IMG/VR virus record: IMGVR_UViG_2700989170_000010 | Direction: 5' to 3' (one strand) | Length of the DNA: 13,190 nucleotides | Source: a virus | Lineage: Duplodnaviria; Heunggongvirae; Uroviricota; Caudoviricetes | Part shown: one piece after another, positions 1 through 8,683 of the stretch | Layout of the letters: each line of letters opens with the position of its first letter | Numbering within the stretch: position 1 is the stretch's first letter | Translations under genes and position numbers: made by a program | Notes under the pieces: generated by a model | Databases searched by the model: none | What the model saw: only the letters and a program-made list of their open reading frames with translations | What the model was told of the DNA's origin: nothing

Positions 1-483
1 AATATCTGCGGCAGCGGGCTTGTAATGGGTTAAGTGATAACAGATGTCTGGAAATATAAGGGCAAATCCAGCATCATGTTCGAACACCACTCCAACATCT
101 GTTTGAACACCTGTTAAATTTCTCTCTTGTTTTGTTTGAACATCTGCTTCCTTTCTGCTTCTTCTGGCCTGAACAGATGCTTTTCCTGCGGCTGATTTTT
201 TGGTTAATTTTTCTCTGACAGATGCCAGATCTTCCTCAATCCGAAGATGCATCCATTCGTCGCCGTTATCACAAAAAAACTCCCGCAAGGATGGTTCAAC
301 ATCAACCCATCGCTCGTTAGTCAGACGGGCAATTTTTGCCAACCTGTTTTTGGGTATTGGCTTTCCTGTTTGCCAGTAATTGAACATCAGCAACAAATAC
401 GCGCCGTGCTCCTCTGCTGACAAATGCATGGTGTCAGCCAGGTAATCAGCTATGTACAGTTGCATGTATGGTAATGCGGCCAT
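1..483 (-). CDS. DUF1376-family phage/prophage protein (replication-module type), N-terminal 161 codons; 3' end runs off the window start
   Basis: Absent from the supplied ORF track because it runs off the window. Reverse-strand translation from ATG (complement of 481-483) is open to position 1: MAALPYMQLYIADYLADTMHLSAEEHGAYLLLMFNYWQTGKPIPKNRLAKIARLTNERWVDVEPSLREFFCDNGDEWMHLRIEEDL... This matches the YIxDYLxDT...EEHGAY...W signature I associate with DUF1376. Family assignment is from memory. Confidence 0.65.
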   Translation of the reverse strand, partial: MAALPYMQLYIADYLADTMHLSAEEHGAYLLLMFNYWQTGKPIPKNRLAKIARLTNERWVDVEPSLREFFCDNGDEWMHLRIEEDLASVREKLTKKSAAGKASVQARRSRKEADVQTKQERNLTGVQTDVGVVFEHDAGFALIFPDICYHLTHYKPAAADI

Positions 484-580: not shown

Positions 581-590
581 NNNNNNNNNN
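581..590. other. assembly gap (10 N), contig join of unknown true size
   Basis: Run of 10 N. Sequence on the two sides belongs to unrelated contexts (phage gene versus curA upstream region). Confidence 0.9.
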
Positions 591-2873: not shown

Positions 2874-2874
2874 A

Positions 2875-3384
2875 ATCATCAAACTGTCTTGGATAGAAGC
2901 CGCAGTGGATGCGCACAAAACGTTAAATTTCGAACCCAGTGGAAGAAAGCGTATTGGCTTTGACGTGGCTGACAGTGGTACAGATAAGTGCGCTAACGTT
3001 TACCGTCACGGATCCGTTGTTTTCTGGGCCGACGAATGGAAGGCCAAAGAAGATGAATTACTGAAGAGCTGCCAGCGTACTTATCAGGCGGCGCTGGAGC
3101 GTGAAGCAGATATTGTTTACGACTCTATCGGTGTTGGTGCGTCTGCCGGTGCTAAATTCTCTGAAATTAACGCTGACCGGAAGAGCGAGAACGCATACGC
3201 GCGACGTGTGAATTACCAGAGGTTTAACGCCGGTGCTGGTGTGCATGAGCCAGATGACGAGTACAACGGCATCCCCAACAAAGACTTTTTCGCAAATCTT
3301 AAGGCTCAGGCATGGTGGCTGACCGTTTCAGAAATACGTTTAACGCCATTAACAACGGAGAACAGTATCCTGTGGATGAGCTGA
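2875..3384 (+). CDS. terminase large subunit, C-terminal nuclease-domain segment (frame A); 5' part of the gene lost in the gap
   Basis: Frame is open from the first base after the gap: IIKLSWIEAAVDAHKTLNFEPSGRKRIGFDVADSGTDKCANVYRHGSVVFWADEW...FFANLKAQAWW. The GxDxAxxGxD motif is typical of terminase large-subunit RNaseH-like nuclease domains. The ORF track starts it at GTG 2905. Confidence 0.7.
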   Translation: MIKLSWIEAAVDAHKTLNFEPSGRKRIGFDVADSGTDKCANVYRHGSVVFWADEWKAKEDELLKSCQRTYQAALEREADIVYDSIGVGASAGAKFSEINADRKSENAYARRVNYQRFNAGAGVHEPDDEYNGIPNKDFFANLKAQAWWLTVSEIRLTPLTTENSILWMS

Positions 3385-3605
3385 TCAGCATAGATTCTCG
3401 TTGTCCGTTGCTTGAAAAGCTGAAACTGGAACTGACAACACCTCATCGTGATTTCGACCGTAACGGACGTGTGATGGTCGAAAGTAAAAAAGACCTCGCA
3501 AAACGCGAGATACCGTCACCAAACGTTGCTGATGCATTCATTATGGCCTTCGCGCCAATCGATACATCGCTGGATATCTGGGAACAGCTGGGGAGACAGG
3601 CCTGA
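3312..3605 (+). CDS. terminase large subunit, extreme C-terminal segment (frame B), continuation of the previous segment after a frame change
   Basis: Translation ...ADRFRNTFNAINNGEQYPVDELISIDSRCPLLEKLKLELTTPHRDFDRNGRVMVESKKDLAKREIPSPNVADAFIMAFAPI... matches the conserved C-terminal tail of terminase large subunits (…G.v.vESK.D.kKR...SP..ADA..maf). Stop TGA 3603-3605 overlaps the portal ATG (TGATG). Confidence 0.65.
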   Translation: MVADRFRNTFNAINNGEQYPVDELISIDSRCPLLEKLKLELTTPHRDFDRNGRVMVESKKDLAKREIPSPNVADAFIMAFAPIDTSLDIWEQLGRQA

Positions 3606-5071
3606 TGGCACGAAACAAACAAGCCCTGCGGCGAACTGTGCAGGCCACAGCTGATGGTTATGAGAATTTTATTGCCCGAGTAGGGATGCAGACACCTAAC
3701 CAGCACTCAGCATCCACCTACCGGGCTAATTTCACCAGTCGTAACCGCATGCTGGTGGAATGGTCCTATCGTTCATCCTGGATCATCGGCGAAGCAGTCG
3801 ATGCTATCCCGGATGATATGACCCGCAAAGGCATTCGCATCACTTCGGAAATTGATGCAAAAGATCGTGGCATTCTCGAATCACAACTGGATGAGTTGCA
3901 AATCTGGGATGCGCTGAATGACGTGCTGAAATGGTCGCGCCTCTACGGCGGCGCGGTGGGTTTCATCATGATTGAGGGGCAGGCACCAATGACCCCGCTG
4001 CGACCCGAAACCATCGGTAAGGGCAAGTTTAAGGGGATTCTCCCGCTCGACCGCTGGATGGTCGACCCGGCACTGACCCGCCGCATTAAAGATATGGGGC
4101 CGGACCTGGGTAAACCTGAGTTTTACGATGTGGTGACCACAGCAACGGGAATTCCTGCCTGGCGCATTCATCACAGTCGCCTGATTCGCTTTGATGGCGT
4201 CACGTTGCCATTTCAGCAGAAGATGACCGAGAACGAATGGGGAATGTCGGTTGTAGAGCGTATCTGGGATCGTCTTACCGCGTTCGACAGCGCTACTGTC
4301 GGCGCGGCGCAGCTGGTCTACAAGGCGCATTTGCGTACCTACAGCGTGGAGAAGCTACGCGAGCTTATCGCACTTGGTGGTCCTGCGTATGAAGCGTTGC
4401 TGAAGAATATCGACCTGATTCGACAGTTCCAGAGTAATGAAGGCATGACGCTCATGGACTCGCGGGATAAGTTTGAAACCCATCAGTACAGCTTCAGTGG
4501 TCTGGATGACATCCTTTCGCAGTTTGCAGAACAGATTAGTGGCGCTGTTGGTATCCCACTGGTGCGGTTGTTCGGACAGTCCCCGAAAGGATTTTCTACC
4601 GGTGATGCAGACCTTGCCAACTATTACGATCGCATCAGTTCGTTGCAGGAGAGGCGTTTACGTCTTCCGGTGCGGCGGATACTGGACATCATGCATCGTT
4701 CGGAACTTGGCAAGCCGCTGCCGGACGATTTCACGTTTGAGTTTAACCCGCTCTGGCAAATGTCTGATGTCGATCGCTCAACGGTGGCGTTAAACACCAC
4801 CAACGCAATCAGTACGGCGATGGGTGATGGTCTGATGACACTGAAAGCCGCTATGACTGATTTGCGAGAAAATTCTGACGTAACCGGCATAGGGGCATCC
4901 ATTACCAACGAGGACATCGAGAATGCCGAAGATGAAGCGCCGCCCGGCATCGGCGAACCTGATGACGAACCGCAGGAGCCGTCAGGCGGAAATCCGGTAT
5001 CGAACCAGCCTACGCAGGATAGCGAGGGCGGTCGGAGACATCGTAAATGGTCGCTACGATGGTTCAAATGA
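3605..5071 (+). CDS. phage portal protein (putative; DUF1073/portal-like) with acidic Pro-rich C-terminal tail
   Basis: 488-aa ORF immediately after the terminase with a translationally coupled start (TGATG). Size and position fit a portal. C-terminus EDEAPPGIGEPDDEPQEPSGGNPVSNQPTQDSEGG is a disordered acidic tail. Confidence 0.7.
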   Translation: MARNKQALRRTVQATADGYENFIARVGMQTPNQHSASTYRANFTSRNRMLVEWSYRSSWIIGEAVDAIPDDMTRKGIRITSEIDAKDRGILESQLDELQIWDALNDVLKWSRLYGGAVGFIMIEGQAPMTPLRPETIGKGKFKGILPLDRWMVDPALTRRIKDMGPDLGKPEFYDVVTTATGIPAWRIHHSRLIRFDGVTLPFQQKMTENEWGMSVVERIWDRLTAFDSATVGAAQLVYKAHLRTYSVEKLRELIALGGPAYEALLKNIDLIRQFQSNEGMTLMDSRDKFETHQYSFSGLDDILSQFAEQISGAVGIPLVRLFGQSPKGFSTGDADLANYYDRISSLQERRLRLPVRRILDIMHRSELGKPLPDDFTFEFNPLWQMSDVDRSTVALNTTNAISTAMGDGLMTLKAAMTDLRENSDVTGIGASITNEDIENAEDEAPPGIGEPDDEPQEPSGGNPVSNQPTQDSEGGRRHRKWSLRWFK

Positions 5072-5705
5072 CAGTATCACGGAAATTATTGCGGCGCTGG
5101 AGCGTTACAGTGAAATCATCACCCCCTGGGCGACAAAGGTCGCGGAAAACTTTACTGCGGACCTAACCCGGCAGAACGAGAAAGTTTGGCGGCAACACAG
5201 CAAGAACATCAGTCGCGAGCTCCGCAATCTTGTGGAAAGCGCTCCTGTGGGCCAGGTGATGCAATCCATCATCGCCGAACAGGTCAAGTACATCAAATCT
5301 CTGCCTCTCGAGGCCGCAGACAGGGTGTACGACATCCAGAACAAAGCGATAGAGGCTGTTGTCACCGGTGGTCGGGCGGAGCAGTTTGCTAAAGAGATTG
5401 CATCTACCGGCGATGTTGCTAAGTCTAGGGCCGATCTGATTGCCCGAACGGAACTGGGAAGAGCAACGGGCGCGCTGGATATGGCCCGAGCGATAGCTAT
5501 TGGCTCGGATGGTTATATTTGGCGTACAGCCGATGATGGCGATGTCCGAGATTCCCACGATCACATGAAAGGTAAATTCGTCCGCTGGGATTCACCTCCA
5601 ACTTTGGACGGCATGACCGGCCACGCGGGCGAGCTGCCAAACTGCCGCTGCTATAAAGAGATCGTGTTTGTTCGCGTTCCATTCGCAATGAAAAGGGCAG
5701 CATAA
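4923..5705 (+). CDS. phage head morphogenesis / minor head protein, Mu gpF-like (SPP1 gp7-like)
   Basis: C-terminal region ARTELGRATGALDMARAIAIGSDGYIWRTADDGDVRDSHDHMKGKFVRWDSPPTLDGMTGHAGELPNCRCY carries the Phage_Mu_F hallmarks (ARTE..., D.RVR.SH, P.CRC). Start is uncertain (ATG 4923 or ATG 4962). This frame is closed upstream at TAG 4890-4892. Confidence 0.8.
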   Translation: MPKMKRRPASANLMTNRRSRQAEIRYRTSLRRIARAVGDIVNGRYDGSNDSITEIIAALERYSEIITPWATKVAENFTADLTRQNEKVWRQHSKNISRELRNLVESAPVGQVMQSIIAEQVKYIKSLPLEAADRVYDIQNKAIEAVVTGGRAEQFAKEIASTGDVAKSRADLIARTELGRATGALDMARAIAIGSDGYIWRTADDGDVRDSHDHMKGKFVRWDSPPTLDGMTGHAGELPNCRCYKEIVFVRVPFAMKRAA

Positions 5706-5708
5706 CCC

Positions 5709-6929
5709 ATGAAATACTTTTTTGAGACCAGGCTCGGGGAAACCCGATACCGCCTGGCTGACGGCTCGTTGCTGTGCAAAGACGTGCCGATAGGACGAAC
5801 AGGTAAGCAGCTCTATGGTGCTGATGACCTGCCAAAACTGAAACCCGATAAGTTCGTTGAAATAGTCGTCACGCGTTCTCCTGAGCAGGTATTCCATCCG
5901 GCCACGCTTGCCTCATTCGAAGGGATGAGCATCACGATCCTGCATCCTGAAGATGAAAACGGGAATGTGCGGCTGGTAAATCCCGAGAACTGGAAAGTGC
6001 TTGCTGTCGGGCACCTCCAGAATGTCCGGCGCGGGACGGGTGAGCAGTCTGATTTGATGCTGGCTGACCTTATCGTCAAAGACGAAAGCGCCATTCAGCT
6101 TATCGAAGATGGCCTGCGCGAAGTGTCGTGCGGCTATGACGCGGAGTACGAGCAGACCGAGCCAGGTAAAGCCGAGCAGGTCGATATTACCGGAAACCAT
6201 GTGGCTCTTGTCCCTAAAGGCAGAGCCGGAAATCGTTGTGCAATTGGAGACAGAGACACAATGGCAAATCAAAAGAAAAACTGGTGGAACCGCATGCGTG
6301 CGGCCATCAAGACAGGAGATGCCGACACCATGAACGAACTGGTGGAGTCGGCTCCCGCATCGGTTACAGGAGATGAGGGGGATTTGCCGCAGGGCGTTAA
6401 TCTCAACATCAACCTGTCCCCGCAGCAACCACTACCGGACAAAGCACCAGAGATGGGCGGAGATCCAACCGGCGACAGTGATGATGACCTCAAAACATTA
6501 CTGAAAGCCCTGCTGGCTAAGCTGGAAAGAAATGCCACGGGCGATAACGATAATAAGCCTGACGATAATCCGACCGGTGACGGCGAGGACGATGAAGAGG
6601 AAACCACGATTACTGGTGACTCAGCCTGGCGTGCCGAAGTTATCGTTCCGGGTATCGATCTGAGCCGTAAGATGAAACCGACCGCGTTCAAACGCGAGGT
6701 TCTGGCTTCTGCTGACAAAACGCTGGTTCGCCAGATAGTCGGTGATGCGGATATCCGCAAATTACCGAAACAATCGGTCGACATGGCGTTTAATGCCGTG
6801 TCTGAGGTTGCCAAAGGGCGAAACACCCGCGCCACCACCGGCGATGCACAGCGCCTAAACATGGGCATGACCAGTATCGCTTCCCTGAACAAACAAAACG
6901 CTGAATTCTGGGCAAACCGTAAAGGGTAA
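5709..6929 (+). CDS. putative prohead scaffolding-type protein (possibly DUF2213-like N-terminal domain) with acidic TGD-repeat low-complexity core
   Basis: 406-aa ORF between the MuF and capsid genes. Residues about 200-305 are strongly acidic and contain repeated TGD motifs (TGDAD, TGDEGD, PTGDSDDD, ATGDNDN, PTGDGEDDEEE, ITGD) plus an LKTLLKALLAKLE helix-like segment. Function is inferred from position and composition; the family name is a tentative recall. Confidence 0.5.
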   Translation: MKYFFETRLGETRYRLADGSLLCKDVPIGRTGKQLYGADDLPKLKPDKFVEIVVTRSPEQVFHPATLASFEGMSITILHPEDENGNVRLVNPENWKVLAVGHLQNVRRGTGEQSDLMLADLIVKDESAIQLIEDGLREVSCGYDAEYEQTEPGKAEQVDITGNHVALVPKGRAGNRCAIGDRDTMANQKKNWWNRMRAAIKTGDADTMNELVESAPASVTGDEGDLPQGVNLNINLSPQQPLPDKAPEMGGDPTGDSDDDLKTLLKALLAKLERNATGDNDNKPDDNPTGDGEDDEEETTITGDSAWRAEVIVPGIDLSRKMKPTAFKREVLASADKTLVRQIVGDADIRKLPKQSVDMAFNAVSEVAKGRNTRATTGDAQRLNMGMTSIASLNKQNAEFWANRKG

Positions 6930-6932
6930 AAA

Positions 6933-7289
6933 ATGAATAATGTATTTCTGTACCGGATGCCTGTTGGCATTGCCGGGGCTGTCTCTCGCCCGCAGGACTT
7001 AACCGTCGAACCGGTGGTCCTTAAATCCGATAACGCCTTCGCTGCCTATGGCCTGGCTGGTAAATACGATGATGACGGTTTTTTCGTGCCGCTGGCAGAT
7101 GGTGATACCGCAGACAAGGTGAAGGGGATCTACGTGCGCCCTTATCCGACCACGTCGCAGCCGGACATGGTTCGCCAGGTGGGAACAGGCAAGAACTTCC
7201 CGGGCGACGCCATGAAGCGTGGCTACGTGACCGTTAATCTCGGTTCTGATTTTGATGCCAGCACTATCAAAAAAGGCGATCTCCACTGA
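6933..7289 (+). CDS. small head-associated protein (possible decoration/accessory protein), apparently truncated by a frameshift at an A6 run
   Basis: 118-aa ORF MNNVFLYRMPVGIAGAVSRPQDLTVEPVVLK... ends at TGA 7287-7289, 13 nt after AAAAAA (7269-7274). The +1 frame continues open to 7422. Confidence 0.55.
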   Translation: MNNVFLYRMPVGIAGAVSRPQDLTVEPVVLKSDNAFAAYGLAGKYDDDGFFVPLADGDTADKVKGIYVRPYPTTSQPDMVRQVGTGKNFPGDAMKRGYVTVNLGSDFDASTIKKGDLH

Positions 7290-7422
7290 TGAATCCATCA
7301 AAGTGCCTCTGGGTGGATTCATGTCCACGTCAGTCAGTGGCAAAAACGTGGTGCTGACCAACGCTGAATTCACAGGTGCCGGTGATGCTGACGGCAATGC
7401 AGAAATTTCCTGGAAGATTTAA
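7270..7422 (+). CDS. probable frame-shifted C-terminal continuation of the 6933 gene
   Basis: The frame entered by skipping one base in the A6 run reads ...AISTDESIKVPLGGFMSTSVSGKNVVLTNAEFTGAGDADGNAEISWKI* with stop TAA 7420-7422, immediately before the RBS and ATG of the capsid gene. It fills an otherwise anomalous 144-nt gap in a tightly packed operon. Confidence 0.45.
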   Translation, partial: KKAISTDESIKVPLGGFMSTSVSGKNVVLTNAEFTGAGDADGNAEISWKI

Positions 7423-7433
7423 GGAACAGACGA

Positions 7434-8375
7434 ATGATTACTTTTGATCAGGCAACCGTTGACAGCTCTGGTGCCTTTCTCATCGGGGAGCTGGAGAGAC
7501 TCGACCAGACGCTGAACCTGCCACTGGTGGGGTACACCTGGAGCCGCGATATTCAACTGCGTGAAGACGCCTCCATCGCAGATGACATTTCCAGCTGGAC
7601 GAATACCAGCTTCGCCGCTGCGGGTACTGGCGCAAATCCGAATGGAAAAAACTGGGTAGGCAAAGACTCAACCGCTATTGCTGGCGTGAACGTGGATATC
7701 GGCAAATCCGGTAACCCGCTGAACCTGTGGGGGATGGAACTTGGCTGGACGGTCATAGAATTGCAGGCTGCTCAGCAGGTCGGCCGCCCGATTGATACGC
7801 AGAAGTATGACGGTATGCAACTGAAATGGCAGATGGATAACGATGAACAGGTATATGTTGGCGATTCCGCATTAAACCTGAAAGGCCTTGTTACCCTGGA
7901 CGGCGTGCCTGTCAACAACGCTGCCAAAACGTGGGCAACCTCAACACCGGACGAAATCCGCGCAAGCATTAACCAGGTGCTGTCTGATGCGTGGGCCGCT
8001 TCTGGTTACTCTGTGGTTCCGCGTGATTTGCTGATCCCGCCTGAGCAGTTTGCTCTGTTGTCCAGCATCATCGTTTCATCTGCAGGTAACCAGTCCCTGT
8101 TGACGAACCTTCAGACCAACACCATCAGCTATCACCAGAACGGTGTTCCGCTGAATATCCGCGCGGTTAAATGGCTGAAAGGCCGTGGTGTGGGGAATAA
8201 GGATCGCATAGTTGCGTACACCAACGATAAAAAATACGTCCGCTACCCGCTGGTTCCGCTTCAGAGCGTGCCGGTGCAGTATCGCGGTCTGTATCAGATC
8301 GTCACTTACTACGGCAAGCTGGGTGCAGTCGAGCCAGTGTACAAAGAAACCATTTCGTACGTTGATGGCATTTAA
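7434..8375 (+). CDS. putative major capsid protein (possibly DUF2184-like)
   Basis: 313-aa ORF with RBS AAGGA 8 nt upstream, positioned after the scaffold-like and decoration-like genes and followed by a GC-rich hairpin. Translation MITFDQATVDSSGAFLIGELERLDQTLNLPLVGYTWSRDIQL... Family assignment is from memory and unverified. Confidence 0.5.
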   Translation: MITFDQATVDSSGAFLIGELERLDQTLNLPLVGYTWSRDIQLREDASIADDISSWTNTSFAAAGTGANPNGKNWVGKDSTAIAGVNVDIGKSGNPLNLWGMELGWTVIELQAAQQVGRPIDTQKYDGMQLKWQMDNDEQVYVGDSALNLKGLVTLDGVPVNNAAKTWATSTPDEIRASINQVLSDAWAASGYSVVPRDLLIPPEQFALLSSIIVSSAGNQSLLTNLQTNTISYHQNGVPLNIRAVKWLKGRGVGNKDRIVAYTNDKKYVRYPLVPLQSVPVQYRGLYQIVTYYGKLGAVEPVYKETISYVDGI

Positions 8376-8382
8376 CAGCCAC

Positions 8383-8403
8383 ATGGCCCCCTGGCGGGGC
8401 CAT
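8383..8403 (+). terminator. GC-rich perfect hairpin (8-bp stem, 5-nt loop) 8 nt downstream of the capsid gene stop
   Basis: ATGGCCCC (8383-8390), loop CTGGC, GGGGCCAT (8396-8403). No T-tract follows, so it is a putative attenuating or stabilising stem-loop and not a canonical intrinsic terminator. Confidence 0.45.
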
Positions 8404-8416
8404 TAAGGATGACCCG

Positions 8417-8662
8417 ATGGCAAAAAATGATGCAGTAATACACGTACATACCCCGTTTGTGCTCACGCTTCCCGACGGTTCTCGGCGCGAGTTTGTTAAA
8501 GGCCGTCATGTTGTGGAGGAAGACGTTGCCACGCACTGGTTCACTCGTGCGCACGCGGAAGTATCCGTTGGCAAAGCCACAGACGCGCGTAACGAGGTAA
8601 AAAATGCCAAAGAATTGAGGTGTACTGGCAATAGCGGACACTACCATTTGTTCTTTTTTTAA
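8417..8662 (+). CDS. small hypothetical phage protein downstream of the capsid gene; C-terminus near the contig end is unreliable
   Basis: 81-aa ORF with good RBS (AAGGA, 7-nt spacer): MAKNDAVIHVHTPFVLTLPDGSRREFVKGRHVVEEDVATHWFTRAHAEV... It ends ...HYHLFFF* in a T-run 11 nt before the N-run. Confidence 0.45.
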   Translation: MAKNDAVIHVHTPFVLTLPDGSRREFVKGRHVVEEDVATHWFTRAHAEVSVGKATDARNEVKNAKELRCTGNSGHYHLFFF

Positions 8663-8673
8663 GCAGCCATCTG

Positions 8674-8683
8674 NNNNNNNNNN
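8674..8683. other. assembly gap (10 N); boundary between phage contig and yfaL-nrdAB chromosomal contig
   Basis: Run of 10 N. Gene content changes across it. Confidence 0.9.

What the first reader, a model, noticed from the sequence alone, without database searches (positions are those of the whole stretch)
7231..7422. Decoration-like gene split by a frame change at an A6 homopolymer
The 6933 ORF stops at 7287-7289, 13 nt after AAAAAA (7269-7274). Skipping one base in that run gives a frame open for 49 more codons (…AISTDESIKVPLGGFMSTSVSGKNVVLTNAEFTGAGDADGNAEISWKI*) ending right at the capsid gene RBS. Without it there is a 144-nt non-coding gap, which is odd in an operon whose other junctions are 1-4 nt. 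The cause could be a homopolymer sequencing error, a pseudogenising insertion, or a programmed +1 frameshift that makes short and long isoforms.
Basis: seen in the sequence. Interest (0 to 1): 0.45.

Follow-up and report, generated by a model that had tools for sequence, protein, structure and literature searches.

The report
Phage cement gene broken by deletion
A phage head "cement" (decoration) gene in a decayed Shigella flexneri prophage remnant is split because 17 bases were deleted just after the A6 run; this is ordinary gene decay, not a homopolymer slip or a programmed frameshift.

Summary
The sequence facts hold. ORF 6933-7289 (118 aa) stops at TGA 7287, the +1 frame is open to TAA 7420-7422, and the capsid ATG is at 7434. 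The two frames are the two halves of one gene. Intact relatives in E. coli prophages, induced E. coli phages and Salmonella phage SEN34 have a single 163-168-aa "structural cement protein Gp24" (PF22758/PF23982). The break is not at the A6 run: intact genes carry the same A6 in a continuous frame. The window lacks 17 nt (TCCGGTATACGTTGTCG) at 7279|7280, with 2-nt TC microhomology. This removes the conserved PVYVV strand and shifts the frame. The lesion is real and inherited. The exact 118-aa product occurs on at least 1000 contigs, including complete S. flexneri genomes such as 2457T. The 5.8-kb piece 2874-8673 is 99.9-99.98% identical to them. None of 5426 complete E. coli genomes has the junction. 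The piece is a prophage remnant: the terminase is cut, tail genes are absent and IS ends bound it. Verdict: a fixed pseudogene. Low interest; already present in published genomes.

The parts
6933..7289 (+). 5' part of the cement-protein pseudogene: codons 1-116 authentic (M1..D116), then two out-of-frame codons (L, H) and TGA
   Evidence: Translation. It is identical to residues 1-116 of the intact 168-aa protein. Pfam PF23982 covers profile positions 1-112 of 154 and PF22758 covers 7-105 of 146. PHROG 563 covers positions 4-114.
7269..7274 (+). A6 run (codons K113 K114). It is not the site of the lesion.
   Evidence: The same AAAAAA occurs in the intact genes of E. coli prophages L001 and L002, E. 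coli phage vB_EcoM-683R1 and Salmonella phage SEN34.
7279..7282 (+). Deletion junction. 17 nt (TCCGGTATACGTTGTCG) are missing between 7279 and 7280. Placement is ambiguous by 2 nt because of TC microhomology (7280-7281).
   Evidence: DNA alignments. The junction 40-mer is found in all 12 Shigella-type loci but not in L001 or L002, and in 0 of 5426 complete E. coli genomes.
7282..7422 (+). 3' part of the same gene, now in the +1 frame: residues S123-I168 plus TAA
   Evidence: The translation is identical to the intact protein's C-terminus. PHROG 563 covers positions 121-164. One synonymous difference from L001.
7434..8375 (+). Major capsid protein gene (DUF2184/PF09950), 11 nt after the ancestral cement-gene stop
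   Evidence: Pfam E = 2.6e-85 and PHROG 264. The same 11-nt spacing is seen in intact prophages and phages.
2874..8673 (+). Prophage remnant piece: terminase C-terminal fragment, portal, Mu-F-like, DUF2213, cement pseudogene, capsid, truncated STY1053-like gene and an IS end at 8616-8673. It is bounded by N10 spacers.
   Evidence: 99.9-99.98% identity without gaps to S. flexneri chromosomes, where IS elements flank it. N runs are listed.

Best explanation
The region is a pseudogene of a phage capsid cement (decoration) protein of the E217 gp24 / Pam3 gp6 / XM1 gp53 family. It lies in a defective prophage remnant that is fixed in a Shigella flexneri lineage. A 17-nt deletion between window positions 7279 and 7280, flanked by a 2-nt TC microhomology, removed codons P117-V121 and two bases of V122. 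That shifted the frame, so translation from ATG 6933 ends at TGA 7287 after 116 authentic residues. The remaining 46 codons (7282-7419) sit untranslated in the +1 frame and look like a 144-nt intergenic gap.

Shown: the deletion, its polarity, its reality across independent assemblies, and the defective state of the element. Inferred: the deletion arose by replication slippage or microhomology-mediated joining, and the 118-aa product is non-functional. The inference of non-function rests on the loss of three predicted core beta-strands, residues 117-121, 144-156 and 161-167.
For: (1) Intact orthologues are single 507-nt ORFs of 168 aa annotated 'structural cement protein Gp24', with an 11-nt gap to the capsid gene.

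(2) The DNA alignment shows A6 unchanged and a clean 17-nt gap in the window.

(3) Polarity: more distant homologues (Salmonella phage SEN34, Hafnia, Serratia, Pantoea, Xenorhabdus and others) are 163-174 aa, and those aligned keep the xPVYVxx segment, with V118 invariant and Y119 nearly so. All 41 phage records match over at least 98% of the query in one piece.

(4) The lesion is real and inherited. The exact 118-aa product is indexed in 3048 blocks and on at least 1000 contigs. It is named in S. flexneri 2a str. 301, and complete chromosomes including AE014073.1 carry it. Two further complete genomes carry the exact junction. Window 2874-8673 is 99.9-99.98% identical to them.

(5) It is absent from E. 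coli: 0 of 5426 complete genomes have the junction, with a positive control. 332-339 of those genomes carry the gene.

(6) The element is defective. The terminase is cut by an IS, only a C-terminal fragment remains in the window, no neck or tail genes follow the capsid gene, and the piece ends in an IS end. One strain has a further IS in the DUF2213 gene (L009).

(7) There are 12 nonsynonymous and 4 synonymous differences from the closest E. coli prophage, which is consistent with relaxed selection.

(8) An AlphaFold model of the intact protein puts strand 117-121 (PVYVV) and the best-predicted C-terminal strands in the lost part. The model's best PDB matches are the XM1 and Pam3 capsid accessory chains.
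Against: No direct expression or protein data were available. RefSeq's own pseudogene annotation for Shigella could not be inspected because it is not in the available collections. The portal, DUF2213 and capsid ORFs in the remnant are still intact, so residual function of the remnant cannot be formally excluded. Loss of function of the 118-aa product is inferred from a model with a mean pLDDT of only 69.
Confidence: 0.95

Rival explanations
1. Homopolymer sequencing or assembly error at A6 (true length A5 or A8), so the gene is really intact in this genome.
For: A 1-nt shortening of the run would fuse the two frames. That error type does occur at this very run: E. coli assembly GCA_020556295.1 has A5 there, giving a 146-aa product. 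That record has 13 gap openings in 2.9 kb and a capsid gene in three pieces.
Against: A6 is the length found in intact single-frame genes. The difference from them is a 17-nt block, not a 1-nt indel. The same sequence is seen in many independent complete genomes and on at least 1000 contigs.
Confidence: 0.01
2. A programmed, or at least usable, +1 ribosomal frameshift or transcriptional slippage at AAA-AAA-G makes short (118-aa) and long (about 162-aa) isoforms.
For: A P-site tRNA-Lys could re-pair AAA to AAG one base downstream. The +1 frame is open from 7231, and the fused product would regain residues 123-168.
Against: The two-frame arrangement is absent from every intact homologue and phage, so the A6 was not selected as a shift site. 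There is no stop or rare codon after the run (GGC follows). The local RNA fold is not significant, with z = -1.67 and 10 of 200 shuffles as good. There is no Rfam element, only a sub-threshold chance hit. The fused protein would still lack the conserved PVYVV strand. The prophage cannot make virions: the terminase is disrupted and there are no tail genes.
Confidence: 0.02
3. The 118-aa truncated protein, or a separately initiated C-terminal peptide (ATG 7255 or ATG 7321), is a retained functional product of a domesticated prophage remnant.
For: The lesion and the neighbouring intact portal, DUF2213 and capsid ORFs are maintained across many S. flexneri genomes. Gene callers sometimes call the 55-aa or 33-aa ORFs (L006 and L011).
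Against: Divergence from the intact E. coli prophage is only about 0.4%, so retention needs no selection. Substitutions are mostly nonsynonymous. IS insertions continue to hit the remnant (L009). The truncated product lacks half of the predicted beta-core.
Confidence: 0.02

Closest known systems
Structural cement / minor capsid proteins E217 gp24, Pam3 gp6 and XM1 gp53 (Pfam PF22758, PF23982)
   Same: Both Pfam models are matched above their gathering scores. The gene sits directly upstream of the major capsid gene. A model of the intact orthologue has the XM1 (7kmx_a) and Pam3 (8hdt_G) capsid accessory chains as its only convincing PDB matches. E217 gp24 is a trimeric beta-tulip protein at the threefold axes and a likely cementing protein (PMC10329688).
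   Different: The window's copy is truncated at profile position about 112 of 154 and is out of frame afterwards. Sequence identity to the solved structures is only 17-20%. PDB sequence searches found nothing.
Intact orthologue WP_001066732.1 in E. coli prophages and phages (vB_EcoM-683R1 and relatives) and SEN34_6 of Salmonella phage SEN34 (Brunovirus)
   Same: Residues 1-116 and 123-168 are identical to the E. coli protein. The head-module gene order is the same: portal, Mu-F-like, DUF2213, cement, capsid.
   Different: Those genes are continuous 498-507-nt ORFs in complete phage genomes that have terminase, neck, sheath and tape-measure genes. The window has the 17-nt deletion and only a fragment of the head module.
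IS- and mutation-driven pseudogene accumulation in Shigella
   Same: This is a small frameshifting deletion in a non-essential gene of an IS-riddled prophage remnant, fixed in a Shigella lineage. IS-associated genome degradation in Shigella is described in PMC7373316 (title and abstract only).
   Different: Nothing is different in kind. This particular lesion is a microhomology-flanked deletion rather than an IS insertion.
Programmed frameshift sites (prfB +1 CUU UGA; dnaX -1 A AAA AAG; phage tail chaperone G/GT) — compared from general knowledge
   Same: An A-rich run lies in the overlap between two frames.
   Different: There is no conservation of the two-frame layout, no stimulatory stop, Shine-Dalgarno sequence or structure, and the required direction is +1 rather than -1. 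See the membership test.

Membership tests
Phage cement / minor capsid protein (PF22758 Phage_cement; PF23982 XM1_gp53_minor_capsid) | Sequence match to the family profile above the curated cut-off | tested here: met
   The 118-aa ORF scores PF23982 79.1 bits and PF22758 47.2 bits, both with a cut-off of 27. The intact orthologue scores 105 and 76.6 bits.
Phage cement / minor capsid protein (PF22758 Phage_cement; PF23982 XM1_gp53_minor_capsid) | Complete domain in one reading frame | tested here: not met
   The window ORF covers only profile positions 1-112 of 154. The rest is in the +1 frame, at PHROG 563 positions 121-164. The intact orthologue covers 1-153 of 154.
Phage cement / minor capsid protein (PF22758 Phage_cement; PF23982 XM1_gp53_minor_capsid) | Fold resembling the solved capsid accessory proteins | tested here: met
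   This was tested on the intact orthologue P0001, not on the truncated product. Foldseek gives 7kmx_a E = 4.5e-4 with TM 0.49-0.51, and 8hdt_G E = 1.7e-3 with TM 0.56-0.57. Model mean pLDDT is 69.
Phage cement / minor capsid protein (PF22758 Phage_cement; PF23982 XM1_gp53_minor_capsid) | Gene immediately upstream of the major capsid gene in a head module | tested here: met
Phage cement / minor capsid protein (PF22758 Phage_cement; PF23982 XM1_gp53_minor_capsid) | Binds the capsid as trimers at threefold axes | not testable with these tools
   Known for E217 gp24 (PMC10329688). It would need virions, which this remnant cannot make.
Programmed +1 ribosomal frameshift site | Two-frame gene organisation conserved among homologues | tested here: not met
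   All intact homologues and all 41 phage records are single-frame.
Programmed +1 ribosomal frameshift site | Shift-prone codon followed by a slow A-site codon or stop, with a stimulatory element | tested here: not met
   AAA AAA is followed by GGC. The local fold has z = -1.67. There is no Rfam match above threshold.
Programmed +1 ribosomal frameshift site | The shifted product reconstitutes the conserved protein | tested here: not met
   The product would read ...KKAISTDE... and lack P117-V122, including invariant V118 and nearly invariant Y119.
Homopolymer-length sequencing artefact | Run length differs from that of intact homologues | tested here: not met
   A6 is present in the window and in all intact genes examined. 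The same sequence appears in many independent assemblies.
Pseudogene in a defective prophage | An identifiable disabling lesion relative to intact orthologues, with the derived state shown by outgroups | tested here: met
   A 17-nt deletion. Outgroups keep the segment.
Pseudogene in a defective prophage | The lesion is reproducible in independent genomes (inherited, not an error) | tested here: met
Pseudogene in a defective prophage | The surrounding element lacks essential phage functions | tested here: met
   The terminase is interrupted by an IS and is only a fragment in the window. There are no neck or tail genes, and IS ends lie at both sides, in contrast to the complete modules.

The most novel reading that the evidence does not exclude
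Low-level spontaneous +1 slippage, ribosomal or transcriptional, somewhere in the 56-nt overlap (7231-7286), most plausibly at AAA-AAA-G, yields a small amount of a cement protein missing six residues. That protein, together with the still-intact portal, DUF2213 and capsid genes, would be used by S. flexneri or by a helper phage, for example in a capsid-derived particle.
Probability: 0.02. Interest if true: 0.3.

Novelty: already known. Interest (0 to 1): 0.07.

Why it matters
It matters little biologically. It is one more small deletion in a decaying prophage of a genome known for pseudogene and IS accumulation, and the truncated gene is already present, as a "putative bacteriophage protein", in published S. 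flexneri genomes.

It is useful as a caution. A homopolymer near a frame break is not evidence that the break is there; comparison with intact homologues moved the lesion 5 nt downstream and changed its nature. The junction 40-mer could also serve as a lineage marker: it is present in S. flexneri-type genomes and absent from 5426 complete E. coli genomes.

Tried and rejected
- **PDB sequence searches.** The intact protein (phmmer) and a 17-sequence profile found no solved relative. Only the fold search did.
- It was redone with P0001.
- **Rfam scan of 6800-7600.** It gave only a sub-threshold chance hit: SNORD66, 16.8 bits against a gathering score of 32.
- **RNA fold downstream of A6.** A hairpin is present but not significant, with z = -1.67.
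- **Antisense ORF 6999-7397 (132 aa).** No family match, so it is treated as spurious.
- **curA-like split as a sign of a frameshift-rich genome.** The apparent split (ORFs 614-1516 and 1228-1806) was rejected as evidence because N runs at 1239-1358 interrupt it.
- **Biological adjacency of curA/mcbR, the prophage and nrdAB.** Rejected, because N10 spacers separate these pieces.
- **A5 variant P0082 as proof that the run is a natural hotspot.** The one genome inspected is indel-rich, so it is probably a sequencing error.

Full report
**Observation**

The sequence facts in the finding are correct.
- An ORF runs from ATG 6933 to TGA 7287-7289 (118 aa).
- An A6 run lies at 7269-7274.
- The +1 frame is open from 7231 to TAA 7420-7422 and ends ...GNAEISWKI.
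- The TAA overlaps an AAGGA Shine-Dalgarno sequence, 11 nt before the capsid ATG at 7434.
- The apparent non-coding gap 7290-7433 is 144 nt.

On composition alone this is weak evidence. A 63-codon open stretch has a chance probability of about 0.05. There are 10 runs of six or more identical bases (A or T) in the 5.8-kb prophage piece, so one would fall in the 56-nt overlap about one time in ten.

**What the gene is**

- The 118-aa ORF matches Pfam PF23982 (XM1 gp53 minor capsid protein, 79 bits) and PF22758 (structural cement protein E217 gp24 / Pam3 gp6, 47 bits). Coverage stops at profile position about 112 of 154.
- Against PHROG 563 ('virion structural protein'), the ORF covers positions 4-114 and the +1-frame piece covers positions 121-164. 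The two frames are therefore the two halves of one family member, with about six positions missing between them.
- The neighbours form a myophage head module: portal (DUF1073/Phage_portal_3), Mu-F-like head morphogenesis protein, DUF2213, then this gene, then the DUF2184 major capsid protein.
- In E217 the homologous gp24 is a trimeric beta-tulip protein. It sits at the threefold and quasi-threefold axes and probably cements the capsid (PMC10329688).

**Where the break really is**

A megablast of 6700-7700 against 5426 complete E. coli genomes found 339 genomes with the region. The best matches spanned 1018 bases for 1001 query bases. In those records the gene is one 507-nt ORF of 168 aa, annotated 'structural cement protein Gp24' (WP_001066732.1), followed after 11 nt by the capsid gene.

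The DNA alignment shows the following.
- The A6 run is identical in the window and in intact genes. This holds for two E. coli prophages, the induced phage vB_EcoM-683R1 and the more distant Salmonella phage SEN34.
- The window lacks a 17-nt block, TCCGGTATACGTTGTCG, between 7279 and 7280. The deleted block begins with TC and the sequence after it begins with TC, a 2-nt microhomology.
- The deletion removes P117-V121 and two bases of V122, and puts S123-I168 into the +1 frame.

Polarity is clear. Homologues from Hafnia, Rahnella, Serratia, Salmonella, Edwardsiella, Pantoea, Xenorhabdus, Cronobacter and Providencia are 163-174 aa. Those aligned keep the xPVYVxx segment, with V118 invariant and Y119 nearly invariant. 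All 41 phage records with the protein match over at least 98% of its length in a single piece.

**The lesion is real, not an artefact**

- The exact 118-aa product is indexed in 3048 blocks of the assembly collection and on at least 1000 contigs.
- Sources name it 'putative bacteriophage protein [Shigella flexneri 2a str. 301]'. Complete chromosomes carry it, including AE014073.1, which from my own knowledge is S. flexneri 2a 2457T.
- An exact 37-nt junction pattern also hits complete genomes CP182556.1 (S. flexneri) and CP178302.1 (labelled E. coli, 4.44 Mb).
- Window 2874-8673 is 99.9-99.98% identical to these chromosomes. Eleven of the twelve match without gaps; L007 matches from 2944 with a single gap.
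- A 40-nt query centred on the junction finds nothing in the 5426 E. coli genomes. The same query does find all 12 Shigella-type loci under the same settings.

The deletion is therefore a fixed, lineage-specific mutation.

**Context**

The window is a concatenate of pieces separated by N10 runs at 581-590, 2864-2873 and 8674-8683. The prophage piece is exactly the stretch that lies between IS copies in S. flexneri chromosomes.
- The terminase large-subunit gene is interrupted by an IS3-family element, and only its C-terminal fragment is in the window (2905-3384, PHROG 2).
- The piece ends in an IS end (8616-8673) that cuts the STY1053-like gene.
- No neck, sheath, tube or tape-measure genes follow. 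The complete modules of SEN34 and vB_EcoM-683R1 have them.
- One S. flexneri strain has a further IS inside the DUF2213 gene (L009).
- Compared with the closest E. coli prophage (L001), the aligned codons differ at 12 nonsynonymous and 4 synonymous positions, which is consistent with relaxed constraint.

**Consequence for the protein**

An AlphaFold model of the intact orthologue has mean pLDDT 69, but 85-92 over residues 100-160. It predicts strands at 96-102, 117-121, 144-156 and 161-167. Its only convincing PDB matches are the accessory chains of the XM1 and Pam3 capsids. The 118-aa product loses strand 117-121, which is exactly the deleted PVYVV, and both C-terminal strands. I infer that it cannot form the fold.

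**Rival readings**

- *Homopolymer miscount.* This is excluded because A6 is the intact length. That error type does occur elsewhere: E. coli assembly GCA_020556295.1 has A5 and a 146-aa frameshift product, in a record with 13 gap openings per 2.9 kb.
- *Programmed +1 frameshift.* This is very unlikely.
  - No homologue has a two-frame layout.
  - GGC follows the run.
  - The local RNA fold is unremarkable, with z = -1.67.
  - Rfam finds nothing above threshold.
  - A shifted product would still lack the conserved strand.
  - The element cannot build virions.
- *Domestication of the remnant.* This cannot be formally excluded, but nothing supports it.

**Verdict**

This is an ordinary, already-sequenced pseudogene: a phage cement-protein gene inactivated by a 17-nt deletion in an IS-bounded prophage remnant of Shigella flexneri.

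Noticed in passing
window 581-590, 1239-1358, 1829-1940, 2864-2873, 8674-8683: Runs of N. Three 10-N spacers divide the window into four unrelated pieces, and two longer N runs interrupt the curA-like gene region. The adjacency of curA/mcbR-like genes, the prophage remnant and nrdAB is therefore not biological. The apparent split of the curA-like ORF (614-1516 and 1228-1806) is an artefact of the Ns.
   Followed up: partly
window 1-77, 523-580, 8616-8673: Short (58-77 nt) ends of IS elements sit at the edges of the pieces. They match the ends of the IS3-family copies that flank the remnant in S. flexneri chromosomes. This is typical of short-read contigs that break in repeats.
   Followed up: partly
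window 79-483 (- strand): An N-terminal fragment of a DUF1376 (YdaU-like) phage protein (PF07120, E = 9e-26) lies between two IS ends. It is another prophage fragment, unrelated to the finding.
   Followed up: partly
L017 1501-1941 (E. coli GCA_020556295.1): The same A-run is A5 here, giving a 146-aa frameshifted product (P0082; cluster of 21 sequences). This record has 13 gap openings in 2.9 kb against L001 and a capsid gene in three pieces, so sequencing error is likely. The other cluster members were not examined.
   Followed up: partly
L018 5001-5447 (Shigella sonnei GCA_001257855.1): A 60-nt in-frame deletion (20 codons, R96-D116 replaced by H) ends right where the S. flexneri deletion begins. 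It is a single record. Several S. sonnei partial products end at residues 102-118 at contig ends, which hints at an independent break, possibly an IS, in that species.
   Followed up: partly
L001 1263-2006 (E. coli FDAARGOS_943); window 5586-5588: In the closest E. coli prophage the Mu-F-like head morphogenesis gene is annotated as a pseudogene with an internal stop (TGA). The window has TGG (Trp) there, so that gene is intact in the window but broken in the E. coli relative.
   Followed up: yes
L009 6333-7489 (S. flexneri CP026792.1): An additional IS3-family insertion lies inside the DUF2213 gene of the same remnant in one strain, showing continuing decay.
   Followed up: no
L003-L012, about 10945-13471: In S. 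flexneri chromosomes the remnant is followed by an IS and then Mu-like transposase and repressor genes (HTH_Tnp_Mu, DDE_2, Mu-transpos_C), next to dcuC and pagP. This is a second, Mu-like prophage remnant adjacent to the first.
   Followed up: no
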